Position numbers and translations under genes: made by a program | From: Coleofasciculus chthonoplastes F2-STO-03 | GTDB taxonomy: Bacteria > Cyanobacteriota > Cyanobacteriia > Cyanobacteriales > Coleofasciculaceae | Assembly (NCBI GenBank): GCA_040222015.1 | Contig: JAVJWO010000203.1 | Span: 1 to 19,152 of the forward strand | Reading direction: 5' to 3' | Length of the DNA: 19,152 nt | Part shown: piece by piece, positions 6,001-18,606 of the stretch | Position numbering within the stretch: position 1 is the stretch's first letter | Layout of the letters: each line of letters opens with the position of its first letter | The notes under the pieces: generated by a model | Database searches by the model: none | The model's input: only the letters and a program-made list of their open reading frames with translations | Told to the model about the DNA's origin: nothing

Positions 6001-6022
6001 AATTCATAAATAAATCATACGT

Positions 6023-6270
6023 CAATTGTAGGGACAGGTTTAGTCACAATTGTAGGGGCGGGTTTAGTCACAATTGTAGGGGCGGGTTTAGTCACAATTG
6101 TAGGGGCGGGTTTAGGAACTCGATTAGATTGTTACCGATAACGTTTGAACAAAACCCGCCCGCCCTCACCGATAACGTTTGAACAAAACCCGCCCTGATT
6201 ATCGCCAATAACGTATCAGCAAAACCCGCCCGCCCTCACCGATAACGTTTGAACAAAACCCGCCCTGATT
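6023..6270. repeat. Amplified REPIN-like element: 4 tandem 24-bp left arms followed by 4 right arms
   Basis: CAATTGTAGGGGCGGGTTTA(GTCA) at 6023 (degenerate), 6047, 6071, 6095; (A)CCGATAACGTTTGAACAAAACCCGCCC at 6134, 6168, 6205 (variant), 6238. Confidence 0.9.
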
Positions 6271-7261: not shown

Positions 7262-7412
7262 AATCCTGGAATCTGACTGTGTAGTAAGCCCCAGGACAAT
7301 GGGTATAAACTAAACTATATTAAGTTATGTAAAAAGTTCTCAAACCCTTACATAAGACATAAGACGATCCCTACCGTTAACTTTAATTGTCCCCACCGAC
7401 TTACTTTTTTTG

Positions 7413-8129
7413 ATGAAAATAGCATCATTCGTGTCTCCCGCGATCGCAGCCAGTGTGATCCTGTTCCTCAACCCCGGATATGCAGCCATACTCAACACAT
7501 CGGTTCGCTTAGCCGGATTCTCCCCGGATAATCGTCATTATATTCATCTAGAAAGTTACCGGGATTCAGTCACAGAAGTTCCCACGGCTCATCTGCAAAT
7601 TATCAATATTCCCAATAATTCCTGTGTCAGAAATGGATGTCTGCGAACCAACTATGATCGCGATGCCTATAGTCTTAGCAATCAAGCGGCTGAAAACGAC
7701 TTGCTGCAAGACACAGTAACCCTCCGACAAGATTTGGGACTGAATCGGCTCAAAGTTGGCATTAAACTCCCTGTCATCAATAGCACCCGTCAGCCAGATG
7801 ACAGCGAAACTATTACATTTCGCTTAAACAACCAACCGTTACAACTGCGCCTAGAACAAAGGCGTATCCCCTCCGTTTTATCGGGAGGCACGTCTCCCGT
7901 CGAACGGGCGTCCATGCGCTTAATCATAAACTATCAGAATCAGCGCTTAACTCTGGGTAGTCTGAACAACTACCGGGATGCCGTGAAAGGCTATCGGATA
8001 CGAGAGGTGCGGCTATCTCCTAACCGTAGTAATATCGTAGTTCTGCTAGATATGCTGCAACCGACTCATGAGGATGTCGTCAAAACCACGTTAGTGCAAA
8101 GCTTTTCTTTGCAGCCGTTTGAGAATTAG
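7413..8129 (+). CDS. Predicted secreted protein, DUF2259-like
   Basis: Signal peptide followed by GFSPDNRHYIHLES, resembling the DUF2259 N-terminal motif; family call from recall only. Confidence 0.6.
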   Translation: MKIASFVSPAIAASVILFLNPGYAAILNTSVRLAGFSPDNRHYIHLESYRDSVTEVPTAHLQIINIPNNSCVRNGCLRTNYDRDAYSLSNQAAENDLLQDTVTLRQDLGLNRLKVGIKLPVINSTRQPDDSETITFRLNNQPLQLRLEQRRIPSVLSGGTSPVERASMRLIINYQNQRLTLGSLNNYRDAVKGYRIREVRLSPNRSNIVVLLDMLQPTHEDVVKTTLVQSFSLQPFEN

Positions 8130-8171: not shown

Positions 8172-8232
8172 TTAAAGTTATGTGTCTCTAAGTTAGGAAA
8201 AGAAAAGAAACATTAAAAAACATTGCAAAGGG

Positions 8233-8260
8233 TTGTACTTTTCTGAGAGAGTAGTAAATT
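8233..8260 (+). promoter_or_regulatory. Putative sigma70-type promoter with A-rich upstream element
   Basis: TTGTAC-16 nt-TAAATT, preceded by A-tracts at ~8198-8220 and placed 5 nt before the first hairpin of the structured region. Confidence 0.4.
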
Positions 8261-8264
8261 AGTA

Positions 8265-8530
8265 ATTGAAGCGAAAGATAAACCTTCAATGACAGATATT
8301 AATGTCACTTAAAACTCCAGAAAGGAGGGAAAGCTAAGACTCTGTTAAATCTAATATCTGTCTTATCCGAGACCAAACTTCTAACAGCAACACTCAACGC
8401 GAAGACTGATACATCCTCCAACTAGAAATGTAGGGAGCAATGCATCTGAATTCCCGAATTTAGAGCAACTCTATTTAGCATTAATCATGGAGAGGAAGTC
8501 ACTCAGAGAGCAGGTTGAGTGTTGTTGTTA
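8265..8530 (+). ncRNA. Candidate structured non-coding RNA, family unknown
   Basis: Three consecutive stems: 8265-8271/8284-8290 (7 bp), 8291-8301/8352-8362 (11 bp perfect), 8382-8398/8514-8530 (17 bp, one G-U), with nested inner helices; no convincing ORF. Confidence 0.55.
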
Positions 8531-8534
8531 TGTA

Positions 8535-8664
8535 TAAGTAGGTTGGGACAATTAAAGTTAAAGGTGGGGGTTGTCATTCGTCATTTGTCATTTGTCATTT
8601 GTAAGGGTTTGAGGCTTGTTAACATAACTTCATAAGATTGAGTTGATTTCCACCAACCTACTTA
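8535..8664. mobile_element. 130-bp MITE with TAAGTAGGTTGG terminal inverted repeats
   Basis: Perfect 12-bp TIR at 8535-8546/8653-8664, bounded by TA; internal (TCATTTG)n heptamers at ~8571-8602. Confidence 0.75.
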
Positions 8665-8766
8665 GCAAAAACTGGAATCCCTTAAACATAAAGGTTTTAA
8701 AGGCAATTATTCCAGATTCTTAGAGCATTGTTCATGGTTGATGGTTCATGGTTGATTGGTAATCCT

Positions 8767-8865
8767 CTCCCCCATCTCCCCCATCTCCCCCAGCTTCCCC
8801 ATCTCCCCCATCTCCCCCATCTCCCCCAGCTTCCCCAGCTTCCCCAGCTTCCCCAGCTTCCCCTG
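8767..8865. repeat. 9-bp tandem repeat x11 (CTCCCCCAT/CTTCCCCAG), STRR-like
   Basis: Direct reading; preceded by TT(C/G)ATGG heptamers at 8731-8760. Confidence 0.92.
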
Positions 8866-8995
8866 CTCCCTGTTCCCCCTTCCCTCTCCTCACCCCCAAC
8901 ACTTAATTTAGCGTTTGACTAGAAACAGGTTAAGATTTGTATACAGGCGTTCTTTCCATTTACGCCGCCGCATCAGCCGTCAACCTTGTTTCCCA

Positions 8996-9991
8996 ATGAC
9001 CCTTATCCGCGTTCCCCAATCCTGGGAAATTCCCGAAAACCAAATCACGCCTGAAGCCGTTTACTTCAATCGGCGTCGCTTTCTCAAAACCCTAGTCGGT
9101 GCGAGTATTCTCCCCATCCTGGGATGTCAAGCCTCCTCTGACTCGGAAACCAATAAGGAACTAGCCGCTACCCTCAATCAACAGACGGTTAAATCCCTTA
9201 ACACCAATCCCGCATTTGCGAATGTTGACCGTTCCATCACCAATGAGTTATTGGCGGGACAATATAATAACTTCTATGAATTTGGCAGTGGCAAATCGAT
9301 ATGGCAAGCCGCGCAAGCCTTACCGACAGACGAGTGGAAGGTTGAAGTCACCGGATTGGTGAAAAATCCCCGCACCTACGATTTAGACGATTTACGCAAA
9401 AAATTCCCCCTAGAAGAACGTATCTATCGCTTCCGTTGTGTCGAAGCCTGGTCGATGGTATTGCCATGGCTAGGATTTCCGATGCGATTATTAATGGAAG
9501 AGGTAGAACCCACATCTAAAGCCAAATTTGTCCGGTTTACGTCTTTCGATGATCCTCAAATTAGAATCAGTCCAGCGTGGTCATTCAGTGGTAAACTACC
9601 GTGGCCCTACACCGAAGGATTAACGGTAGAGGAAATGGCGAATGACTTGGCATTTTTTGCCGTGGGGATTTACGGTCATTTTCTGCCGAAACAGCATGGG
9701 GCACCGATTCGAGAGGTTGTGCCGTGGAAATATGGGTTTAAGGGGGCTAAGTCTATTGTCAAGATTGAATTTGTTGAGACTCAACCCGCGACATTTTGGA
9801 ATAAGTTAATTCCTTACGAGTACAAGTTTGAGGCAAATGTAAATCCGGATGTACCCCACCCACGTTGGTCTCAAGCGACGGAAAAGTTTGTTGGTAAGGG
9901 ACCAGATTTTTCCTGGGAAAGACGGGAAACGCTTCCCTATAACGGGTATGGGGAATATGTGGCACAGTTGTATCCCAGACTCCGCACTTAA
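8996..9991 (+). CDS. msrP: Protein-methionine-sulfoxide reductase catalytic subunit (molybdoenzyme)
   Basis: 331 aa from ATG 8996; ITPEAVYFNRRRFLK Tat motif, YNNFYEFG, EERIYRFRCVEAWSM, WPYTEGL, PWKYGFKGAKSI, HPRWSQA. Confidence 0.95.
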   Translation: MTLIRVPQSWEIPENQITPEAVYFNRRRFLKTLVGASILPILGCQASSDSETNKELAATLNQQTVKSLNTNPAFANVDRSITNELLAGQYNNFYEFGSGKSIWQAAQALPTDEWKVEVTGLVKNPRTYDLDDLRKKFPLEERIYRFRCVEAWSMVLPWLGFPMRLLMEEVEPTSKAKFVRFTSFDDPQIRISPAWSFSGKLPWPYTEGLTVEEMANDLAFFAVGIYGHFLPKQHGAPIREVVPWKYGFKGAKSIVKIEFVETQPATFWNKLIPYEYKFEANVNPDVPHPRWSQATEKFVGKGPDFSWERRETLPYNGYGEYVAQLYPRLRT

Positions 9992-16188: not shown

Positions 16189-17034
16189 TCATTTTTTATT
16201 GAGTTTGTTTCCCACAGCACAAGTTCCCAATGTCAATAAACCCAATAGCATTGATGCTTCAGGAACAGAAATTTCAGATTGTTTAGACTCAATAAAATTA
16301 ATATATGCTTTTTGATTGTTATGATTAAACAAAGAATTATCTGAACTCTGGAACAGATTAAAACCGTAAGGGTCTCCAACCGCTAAGACTTGACCTCCAT
16401 CGGCAAAAGGCTGAAACTCCACCATCGACCTGATTGAACCATTTGTACCAATCAGCGTCCCCCCAGTGGGAGTAATATCGGTTACCATTGACTCAATATC
16501 AGTGGCTAATGATGTACCAAATGTTTGACCTCTGAGGTCGCCTAATGCGCCGACGGTAGTTGGAGAAACTATATTTTTAAACATGCCACCTGTAGGAGAA
16601 TTGACACCACCGACAACACCTGTATACCGTGAACCGAGCCCCAGTGATTCCAGTACCGAATTAGCCGAATTCTGTTCAGAAGGATTTGAATCAGATTCAA
16701 CAATCACAAAACCACCTGTTTTAACGAAATTTCTCAGCACAGTACTTTCAGTGGGTGTCAGAATTGTTGAGGATGTTCCGTGAAAGAATATATCAACGTC
16801 AGCAAGATTTGCCTCGGTTAGGGTTGATACTCCTGGAAGGATAGTATGTGAACGCTCCAGAATACTTGATCTAAATGCACCGTATAGCAATGCACCATTT
16901 CCGTCATTAAATAAGTCACCACCACGCTGATTAGCGCTGTTCCAACTTCTTAGGGTTAATGCGCCTGCTGAATTTCCTCCTAAAGCTTCTAGAAGAATAG
17001 ATATTGATAGAGTCATTATTAATAGTTTATTCAT
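16189..17034 (-). CDS. PEP-CTERM-type sorted surface protein
   Basis: 281 aa; signal peptide; C-terminal VPEAS + hydrophobic segment + KLNKK basic tail. Confidence 0.82.
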   Translation of the reverse strand: MNKLLIMTLSISILLEALGGNSAGALTLRSWNSANQRGGDLFNDGNGALLYGAFRSSILERSHTILPGVSTLTEANLADVDIFFHGTSSTILTPTESTVLRNFVKTGGFVIVESDSNPSEQNSANSVLESLGLGSRYTGVVGGVNSPTGGMFKNIVSPTTVGALGDLRGQTFGTSLATDIESMVTDITPTGGTLIGTNGSIRSMVEFQPFADGGQVLAVGDPYGFNLFQSSDNSLFNHNNQKAYINFIESKQSEISVPEASMLLGLLTLGTCAVGNKLNKK

Positions 17035-17367: not shown

Positions 17368-17511
17368 GACAAAGGACAAAGGACAAAGGACAAAGGACAA
17401 AGGACAAAGGACAAAGGACGGACAAAGGACGGACAAAGAAAGGACAAAGAAAGGACAAAGGACAAAGGACAAAGGACGGACAAAGAAAGGACAAAGGACA
17501 AAGGACAAAGG
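17368..17511. repeat. Heptamer tandem array (GACAAAG)n, about 20 units with interruptions, STRR-like
   Basis: Direct reading; ends just before the ATG at 17513. Confidence 0.95.
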
Positions 17512-17940: not shown

Positions 17941-17967
17941 AGAGTGAAGACTGTATCAGTAAACGAT

Positions 17968-18606
17968 ATGGAAACACCGGAAGTGACAATGAGCATAGGA
18001 GACGCGGCTAAGGAGCTAGGTGTCTCAGTAATCACACTAAGAAGGTGGGCAGACTCAGGGAAAATCCGTTCGGAGCGCTCACCTTCAGGGCAGAGAAGAT
18101 TTTTTCTAGCCGATATTAAGCGCATTACACCAAGAGAGCTTGGGACTCTAGATGAGCGCATCACAATCAACTATGCGCGTGTCTCAAGCCATGACCAAAA
18201 GCAAGACCTCATAAGACAAGCACAAGTTTTAGAAACTTTTAGTGCAGCTAATGGTTGGCAATACGAGACAATTCAAGACCTTGGCAGTGGTTTGAATTAC
18301 CAGAAAAAAGGATTACAAAAACTCCTGAAACGCATAATGAAAGGCAACGTTGGTCGATTAGTCCTGACTCACAAAGACCGATTGTTGCGCTTTGGTTCTG
18401 AGCTTGTCTTTGCCATGTGTGAAGAGTTTGAGACTGAAGTAGTAATCATCAACAAATCATCTGAGGAGTTAAGTTTTGAGCAAGAGTTAGTGACAGACAT
18501 GATTGAACTAATCACTGTATTTTCGGCTCGTTTGTATGGTTCACGTTCTCGGAAAAACAAAAATCTAATTGACGGCATGACTCAAGTGGTCAAGGATGTT
18601 CAATAA
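17968..18606 (+). CDS. tnpA: IS607-family transposase (MerR-like HTH + serine recombinase)
   Basis: SIGDAAKELGVSVITLRRW HTH; YARVSS catalytic motif, DLGSG, HKDRLLRFG, FSARLYGSRS; start could be 17944, 17968 or 17989. Confidence 0.95.
   Translation: METPEVTMSIGDAAKELGVSVITLRRWADSGKIRSERSPSGQRRFFLADIKRITPRELGTLDERITINYARVSSHDQKQDLIRQAQVLETFSAANGWQYETIQDLGSGLNYQKKGLQKLLKRIMKGNVGRLVLTHKDRLLRFGSELVFAMCEEFETEVVIINKSSEELSFEQELVTDMIELITVFSARLYGSRSRKNKNLIDGMTQVVKDVQ

What the first reader, a model, noticed from the sequence alone, without database searches (positions are those of the whole stretch)
8233..8530. Unassigned ~265-nt three-domain structured RNA candidate with its own putative promoter
Seen: in an ORF-free gap, a TTGTAC-16-TAAATT motif is followed by (i) a 7-bp hairpin ATTGAAG/CTTCAAT; (ii) a directly adjacent perfect 11-bp stem GACAGATATTA/TAATATCTGTC enclosing internal loops and a CTCC-AGAAA-GGAG hairpin; (iii) after a 19-nt linker, a 149-nt rod closed by a 17-bp stem, with nested helices (CTGA/TCAG, CTCCA/TGGAG, TCTGAATT/AATTTAGA) separated by bubbles. 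The mismatches in two helices are G-U on the + strand, favouring a + strand RNA over a DNA palindrome. I see no tRNA, rnpB, ssrA, ffs, Yfr1 or riboswitch hallmarks. Inference: a stand-alone ncRNA. The layout of a 5' hairpin plus two stem-closed loop domains loosely recalls IS110 bridge RNAs, and the third domain recalls 6S-like rods, but no partner gene is in the window.
Basis: partly seen in the sequence, partly recalled or inferred. Interest (0 to 1): 0.72.

Follow-up and report, generated by a model that had tools for sequence, protein, structure and literature searches.

The report
Extra copy of known PmgR1 RNA
This is a real, folded non-coding RNA gene, but it belongs to an already described cyanobacterial regulator of sugar storage (PmgR1), here present as one of eight diverged copies in a single genome.

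Summary
The RNA is real: + strand fold z = -4.25, strong covariation, conserved promoter. It is not unassigned. A covariance model built only from this genome's close relatives matches, full length, a locus whose sequence reads identical to the published Synechocystis PmgR1/Ncr0700 and carries its probe primer (61.4 bits). No Rfam family matched it, so the suggested Rfam scan misses it. Homologues occur in 39 of 42 same-order genomes, mostly single. This genus has 6-8 matches per genome and this genome has eight copies. Bridge-RNA and MITE readings fail: no IS110 recombinase found in the genome, no shared terminal repeats, copies 49-60% identical. The housekeeping 6S lies elsewhere, and published Grad-seq puts PmgR1 in lighter fractions than 6S. 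Most likely mechanism (inferred, about 0.55): a low-light or dark-induced RNA that binds a protein through sequence-conserved helices. Expression of this copy was not shown. New here: the paralogue expansion and a covariation-backed structure.

The parts
8212..8229 (-). Degenerate copy of the family's upstream activator motif (HLR1/RpaB-like), centred about -46
   Evidence: 13 of 16 matches to the HLR1 consensus (consensus from PMC6525291). In the family the best site sits at -46 to -50 in 49 of 91 non-redundant promoters.
8233..8238 (+). -35-like hexamer TTGTAC
   Evidence: Blastn homology with other genera starts here. The TTG is conserved in the own family and only weakly in the whole family.
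8255..8260 (+). -10 hexamer TAAATT
   Evidence: TAnnnT at this position in 105 of 110 homologues.
8265..8530 (+). PmgR1-family RNA gene, about 265 nt. Start inferred at 8265-8268 from the published Ncr0700 5' end; 3' end at or just after the closing stem.
   Evidence: Model R1 202.7 bits (a training sequence). The same model hits the PmgR1-identical locus L217 full length; 50% identity in the alignment.
8265..8290 (+). Domain 1: 5' hairpin (GAAGC/GCTTC core in the family)
   Evidence: 95.4% of cells paired; 8 positions at least 90% conserved.
8291..8362 (+). Domain 2: near-invariant basal stem GACAGA/TCTGTC closing a large loop. This paralogue lacks the inner ACAGC/GCTGT helix of most homologues and extends the basal stem to 11 bp.
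   Evidence: 97.9% of cells paired but no double changes in this helix; alignments.
8323..8328 (+). Shine-Dalgarno-like AGGAGG in the domain 2 loop, not followed by a start codon
   Evidence: GAGG/GGAG-type motif in 110 of 111 homologues; no start codon 4-16 nt downstream in 103 of 110; mean P(unpaired) 0.54, 0.32 in this copy.
8382..8530 (+). Domain 3: long rod with closing stem, two internal helices, a central bubble (about 8419-8433 / 8473-8491) and a variable distal hairpin
   Evidence: The top 10 MI-APC pairs all lie in this rod and are 78-100% canonical. Bubble strands are 12-17 and 19-22 nt in 111 of 111.
7410..8129 (+). Upstream neighbour, DUF2259 secreted protein; not a functional partner
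   Evidence: Pfam PF10016. Adjacent only within the genus; two other genera have the gene with no RNA within 1.5 kb.
8535..8590 (.). Dispersed genomic repeat abutting the 3' end; not part of the RNA
   Evidence: 89 blastn hits in the genome. Replaced by other sequence in most same-genus orthologues.

Best explanation
A paralogue of the cyanobacterial regulatory RNA PmgR1 (Ncr0700, DsiR1), one of eight copies in this genome. SHOWN: family identity (about 0.97), three-domain fold, own promoter position, stand-alone location. FROM THE LITERATURE on the Synechocystis member: very abundant in darkness, stationary phase and heat, repressed by high light, needed for photomixotrophic growth and normal glycogen levels, cut by RNase E, targets unknown. 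INFERRED for this copy: an RpaB-type activator at about -46 to -50 drives transcription in low light or darkness; the RNA folds into a compact particle and acts mainly by binding and titrating or scaffolding a protein through its sequence-conserved helices and fixed-size bubble, and so shifts carbon between storage and use; RNase E cleavage turns it over; the extra copies tune dose or respond to different signals.
For: Identity: L217 carries the published probe primer H08 exactly (primer) and reads by eye identical to the published 251-nt Ncr0700. R1, trained on 29 sequences from near relatives only, hits it over model positions 1-258 (61.4 bits; E 2.2e-12 per genome). Specificity: R1 hit 26 of 29 named cyanobacterial loci and 0 of 51 other loci that shared a seed pattern. 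Structure: 95.0% cells paired, 18 of 47 pairs with double changes, 0 of 500 shuffles, slid controls 37-49%. Promoter: the RpaB regulon table lists an activating HLR1 at -59..-42 for ncr0700, the same 18-mer my scan picked in L217; PmgR1 falls log2 -4.13 in high light. Protein binding: by my reading 44 of the 48 positions conserved at 90% or more lie in helix arms, not in a loop seed; bubble length is tightly held while the distal hairpin varies; Ncr0700 sediments in Grad-seq cluster 10, which the authors link to stable RNA-chaperone complexes.
Against: No transcript evidence for this copy: RNA runs hold only 0.06-0.25 of the words of a 2.6-kb stretch, which does not single out the RNA, and no reads were laid. 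No protein partner is identified, here or in the passages read. Cluster 10 is also the main cluster of most RNAs, so it is weak support. This paralogue lacks the inner domain 2 helix and has a degenerate activator motif, so it may have diverged in function. The activator motif has one good and one weak HLR1 half-site and could bind another factor. Shuffle controls ignore relatedness. The Synechocystis member folds only weakly on its own (z = -1.60).
Confidence: 0.55

Rival explanations
1. PmgR1 paralogue acting as a base-pairing sRNA. The Shine-Dalgarno-like GAGG loop of domain 2, or a fragment freed by RNase E, pairs with CU-rich anti-SD stretches in mRNAs, other sRNAs or 16S rRNA and changes translation of carbon-metabolism genes.
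For: GAGG/GGAG motif in 110 of 111 homologues, about half unpaired, with no start codon behind it in 103 of 110. RNase E processing is published and its authors raise a seed-region model.
Against: Only one loop G reaches 90% conservation; the motif varies (AGAGG 65, AGGAG 27, AGGAGG 14, GAGG 4). Direct RNA targets are stated to be unknown. No target prediction was run here.
Confidence: 0.25
2. Domain 3 is an open-promoter mimic that binds RNA polymerase holoenzyme (a second, 6S-like decoy, perhaps for group 2 sigma factors) and reprogrammes transcription in the dark.
For: Rod with a central bubble of nearly fixed size; a TAnnnT hexamer in the 3' bubble strand in 56 of 111 against 29 +/- 4 in shuffles; very high abundance in dark and stationary phase; 16% of Ncr0700 lies in Grad-seq fractions 10-11, where 6S peaks.
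Against: No 6S match at E up to 10 in the window stretch or 7 homologue loci; a canonical 6S exists in the genome; Ncr0700 peaks in fractions 6-7 (52%) and 6S in 10-11 (45%); the hexamer is absent from half the members and the count ignores relatedness.
Confidence: 0.12
3. Orphan IS110-type bridge RNA that guides a recombinase in trans.
For: Gross layout of a 5' hairpin plus two loop domains (the bridge layout is recalled, not tested against a model); tandem and scattered copies.
Against: No DEDD_Tnp_IS110 match in the genome (0 matches, 14 candidates scored; control rang in 6 of 14 genomes). No recombinase ORF recognised by eye beside the blastn homologues in 30 loci. Near-universal, mostly single-copy presence in the order. 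Published metabolic phenotype of the family.
Confidence: 0.02
4. Decayed MITE or other non-autonomous mobile repeat.
For: Eight copies in varied contexts, one tandem triplet.
Against: Copies at different loci are 49-60% identical yet keep pairing and promoter; no shared terminal inverted repeat or target duplication (longest flank matches 5-10 nt, all different); this locus is orthologous in 7 of 9 genus genomes.
Confidence: 0.02

Closest known systems
PmgR1 (Ncr0700, DsiR1) of Synechocystis sp. PCC 6803 (de Porcellinis et al. 2016, doi 10.1093/pcp/pcw128; not held, title seen in reference lists only)
   Same: Same ordered motifs over the full length, 50% identity, same three domains, same -10 position and upstream activator position, stand-alone gene.
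   Different: One of 8 copies rather than one; about 265 nt against about 290; lacks the inner domain 2 helix and has a longer basal stem; degenerate activator motif; expression and function untested.
6S RNA (Rfam RF00013; ssaA)
   Same: Long rod with a central bubble; high abundance in non-growing states (family level).
   Different: No model match; separate canonical 6S gene on contig C168; two extra 5' domains; different sedimentation.
IS110 bridge RNA / IS1111 seekRNA (layout recalled)
   Same: 5' hairpin followed by two stem-closed loop domains.
   Different: No recombinase beside it or found in the genome; vertically conserved chromosomal gene; no match in phages and one 39-nt match in plasmids.
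Multi-copy protein-titrating sRNAs such as CsrB/C and RsmX/Y/Z (recalled analogy)
   Same: Several independently promoted paralogues, an SD-like purine motif, a link to glycogen.
   Different: One SD-like motif in a large loop rather than many GGA hairpins; no CsrA-type partner tested. It may work like them, but membership is not claimed.

Membership tests
PmgR1/Ncr0700 | Full-length sequence homology to the Synechocystis RNA | tested here: met
   R1 hits L217 over positions 1-258, 61.4 bits; L217 carries primer H08 and matches the published sequence by eye; 50% identity.
PmgR1/Ncr0700 | Conserved three-domain structure with covarying domain 3 rod | tested here: met
   the alignment of 111 includes L217-L220.
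PmgR1/Ncr0700 | Inner domain 2 helix present in most members | tested here: not met
   The window copy cannot form it. It is variable in the family (about 60-68% of weighted members), so I treat it as a subtype difference, not a defining loss.
PmgR1/Ncr0700 | Own promoter with an HLR1-like site in the activating position | tested here: inconclusive
   -10 conserved in 105 of 110; window 13 of 16 at about -46 but with the family's GTAAA core altered; published prediction for ncr0700. Binding not tested.
PmgR1/Ncr0700 | Dark or low-light induced, abundant transcript | not testable with these tools
   The run search was not specific to the RNA; no reads were laid.
PmgR1/Ncr0700 | Required for photomixotrophic growth and glycogen control | not testable with these tools
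   Needs genetics.
6S RNA | Match to RF00013 | tested here: not met
   No 6S match at E up to 10; the true 6S scores 98.8 bits elsewhere.
6S RNA | Rod with central bubble mimicking an open promoter | tested here: inconclusive
   Bubble of fixed size, P(unpaired) 0.53 and 0.62, TAnnnT in 56 of 111.
6S RNA | Co-sedimentation with 6S RNA and RNA polymerase | tested here: not met
   Published Grad-seq rows for the Synechocystis member: peak F6-7 against F10-11 for ssaA. Polymerase protein rows were not retrieved; growth condition not checked.
6S RNA | Product RNA synthesis | not testable with these tools
   Needs small-RNA sequencing or in vitro transcription.
IS110 bridge RNA | Cognate DEDD recombinase beside it or in the genome | tested here: not met
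   the genome is a 219-contig draft.
IS110 bridge RNA | Guide loops that match target and donor DNA | not tested
   No element ends to test against.
MITE | Terminal inverted repeats, target-site duplications, near-identical copies | tested here: not met

The most novel reading that the evidence does not exclude
PmgR1 is a second class of promoter-mimic RNA: its domain 3 bubble, with a -10-like hexamer on the 3' strand, traps RNA polymerase carrying particular (group 2) sigma factors in the dark, and the 6-8 diverged paralogues of this genus are sigma- or signal-specific decoys. This would explain the absence of known mRNA targets.
Probability: 0.12. Interest if true: 0.75.

Novelty: new member of a known kind. 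Interest (0 to 1): 0.3.

Why it matters
PmgR1 is among the most abundant RNAs of Synechocystis and its mechanism is stated to be unknown. The finding itself is another family member. The useful by-products are a covariation-backed structure that names the helices, loop motif and bubble to mutate, a conserved activator site, and a natural series of 6-8 diverged paralogues per genome for complementation tests. I found no mention of such an expansion in the passages read, but the founding paper and the 2026 screen's supplement, which hold a PmgR1 alignment and hit list, could not be read, so it may be in print. An Rfam model would stop scans from flagging this family as new.

Tried and rejected
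Rfam: no match in the whole window (E up to 1) or in 8200-8560 (E up to 10); four chance-level matches, none 6S, in 7 homologue loci. Phage collection: no match; plasmids: one 39-nt match. Blastn alone found one copy in the genome and missed seven paralogues. Blastn hit L025 was a 26-nt match inside a coding region; I dropped it and the two overlapping, chimeric copies of L011 from the training alignments, along with near-identical same-genus rows. The probe primer found nothing in the named genome collection or in 23 genomes of another family; the locus was reached through the model. Small-ORF readings rejected: no start codon after the loop motif in 103 of 110; ORFs from the domain 3 ATG (49 of 111 members) have no common length. 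RNA runs with small shares of the 2.6-kb stretch are no evidence for this RNA; no read mapping was obtained. Weak reverse-strand model hits are the self-complementary rod. The one hit among 98 genomes outside the class (100 nt, E 6e-6) is treated as spurious. A tree places all 8 own copies in a 34-member clade of mostly own-family sequences, with support of only 0.80 and biased sampling: suggestive, not proof, of a family-level expansion. Earlier scan findings: none relevant.

Full report
Observation. The + strand of 8260-8535 folds at z = -4.25 and the - strand at z = -2.95, with 0 of 200 shuffles as good in each case. The gap lies between a DUF2259 gene (7410-8129) and a molybdopterin oxidoreductase gene (ORF 8915-9991) and holds no ORF of 60 aa or more. 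Rfam gives nothing.

Homologues. Blastn found matches in 25 of 41 related genomes, counting this one; one match (L025) was spurious. Homology with other genera starts at the -35 box and ends at the closing stem, in unrelated gene neighbourhoods. A profile of 27 sequences found eight full-length copies in this genome, three of them in tandem about 510 bp apart on contig C195. Copies at different loci are 49-60% identical, all intergenic, each with a promoter-like upstream region. Covariance model R1 (29 sequences from near relatives) matched 45 of 151 genomes drawn from the phylum: by my tally of the family counts, 39 of 42 in the same order, 4 of 10 in other orders of the class, 1 of 98 beyond the class (weak), plus this genome. 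It matched 77 of 89 genomes of another family and 9 of 9 genomes of this genus with 6-8 matches each, one of them partial. On 80 loci that shared a seed pattern it hit 26 of 29 named cyanobacteria (Nostoc, Anabaena, Tolypothrix, Spirulina, Cyanothece and others; the three misses were marine Synechococcus and Prochlorococcus) and 0 of 51 others. This locus is orthologous in 7 of 9 genus genomes. Two other genera carry DUF2259 with no RNA within 1.5 kb, so the neighbour is incidental.

Structure. On 27 sequences, 95.0% of cells pair, 18 of 47 pairs show double changes, no shuffle of 500 reaches this, and slid controls pair at 37-49% (relatedness not removed). On 111 sequences (effective 70) the ten strongest MI-APC pairs are all nested pairs of the domain 3 rod, 78-100% canonical. 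The domain 2 basal stem is nearly invariant and so has no double changes. This copy lacks the inner domain 2 helix seen in most members.

Identity. The distribution suggested PmgR1 (recalled lead). The supplement of PMC6596454 lists the 251-nt Ncr0700/DsiR1 sequence, and the supplement of PMC8682795 lists two PmgR1 probe primers. Locus L217 (genome G275, found by R1 at E 2.2e-12) carries the forward primer exactly, shows the reverse primer site at 875-896 by eye, and reads by eye identical to the published sequence from 603 to 853. R1 aligns to it over all 258 model positions at 61.4 bits; window and L217 are 50% identical in the alignment. The RNA is therefore a PmgR1 homologue.

Promoter. 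A TAnnnT hexamer sits just upstream in 105 of 110 homologues. A GTAAA-containing motif lies further up; the best HLR1-like 18-mer is centred at -46, -47, -49 or -50 in 49 of 91 non-redundant promoters, mean score 12.44 against 11.40 +/- 0.08 in shuffles (kin not independent). PMC6525291 places RpaB activator sites around -51 and its table lists an activating site at -59..-42 for ncr0700, the same 18-mer my scan chose in L217. The window copy has a degenerate version (13 of 16).

What is published. PmgR1 dominates the Synechocystis sRNA pool in darkness, stationary phase and heat (PMC6596454, PMC5386190), drops in high light (PMC12850537), rises in a crhR mutant (PMC6693541), falls on YlxR overexpression (PMC11622646), is cut by RNase E (PMC8682795, PMC10939160), and has unknown targets and mechanism. 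It peaks in fractions 8-9 in one gradient study (PMC12475003) and in F6-7 in another, where 6S peaks in F10-11 (PMC8136920 supplement). A 2026 screen built a PmgR1 model and reports 34 hits in its search regions (PMC12873609). What I saw: passages of all these papers; also the abstract and outline of PMC12873609, passages of the preprint 10.1101/2020.07.02.184192, and supplement rows or pages of PMC8682795, PMC6596454, PMC6525291 and PMC8136920. The supplements of PMC12873609 and PMC6693541 and the founding paper (doi 10.1093/pcp/pcw128) could not be read; its findings are taken from its title and from citing passages.

Mechanism. By my reading, 44 of 48 positions conserved at 90% or more lie in helix arms. 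Bubble strands are 12-17 and 19-22 nt in all 111 members while total length runs from 242 to 379. That pattern fits recognition by a protein better than a loop seed, so I put protein titration or scaffolding at about 0.55. The SD-like loop motif (110 of 111, no start codon after it in 103 of 110) keeps base pairing alive at about 0.25. A 6S-like decoy role gets about 0.12: the bubble has a TAnnnT hexamer in 56 of 111 against 29 +/- 4 by chance, but there is no 6S match, a true 6S lies elsewhere and the sedimentation differs. Bridge RNA and MITE get about 0.02 each. None of these mechanisms was tested directly, and expression of this copy is not shown (one search is not specific).

Verdict. Real feature, new member of a known family. 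The 6-8-copy expansion in this genus and the covariation-backed fold are modest additions that make the open question of PmgR1's mechanism easier to test. Interest 0.3.

Noticed in passing
L217:853-896: The 251-nt Ncr0700 sequence listed in the 2015 review stops inside domain 3, about 40 nt before the 3' strand of the covarying closing stem; a later probe primer lies at the structural end.
   Followed up: partly
G000:C195:3583-4862 (L032); L019; L066; L059; L197: Head-to-tail arrays of 2-4 PmgR1 copies, each with its own promoter-like region, occur in several families.
   Followed up: partly
L011:1137-1708: Tandem duplication in which the second copy begins inside domain 3 of the first, giving a fused, truncated pair.
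   Followed up: no
L024:1-1790: A PmgR1 copy lies upstream of and in the same direction as an ORF that looks TnpB-like (recognised by eye, not scanned); recalls the published read-through of Ncr0700 into a transposase gene.
   Followed up: no
L012, L026, L029: Copies in three genera share the same small downstream membrane-protein ORF, which may mark an older syntenic locus.
   Followed up: no
window 7300-7403 and 8535-8652: Two members of abundant dispersed repeat families (142 and 89 blastn hits in the genome) flank the DUF2259 gene plus RNA in inverted orientation; probably coincidental.
   Followed up: partly
window 8766-8873; 17371-17510; 6022-6267: Short tandem repeat tracts (9-mer and 7-mer units) and GGGGCGGGTTT-type dispersed repeats in intergenic DNA.
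   Followed up: no
window 17944-18606: MerR-type HTH plus resolvase ORF, the layout of an IS607-family transposase (Pfam; family name recalled); a partner gene may run off the window end.
   Followed up: no
window 16189-17034 (-): 281-aa secreted-looking protein with no Pfam match and a PEP-CTERM-like C-terminus by eye.
   Followed up: no
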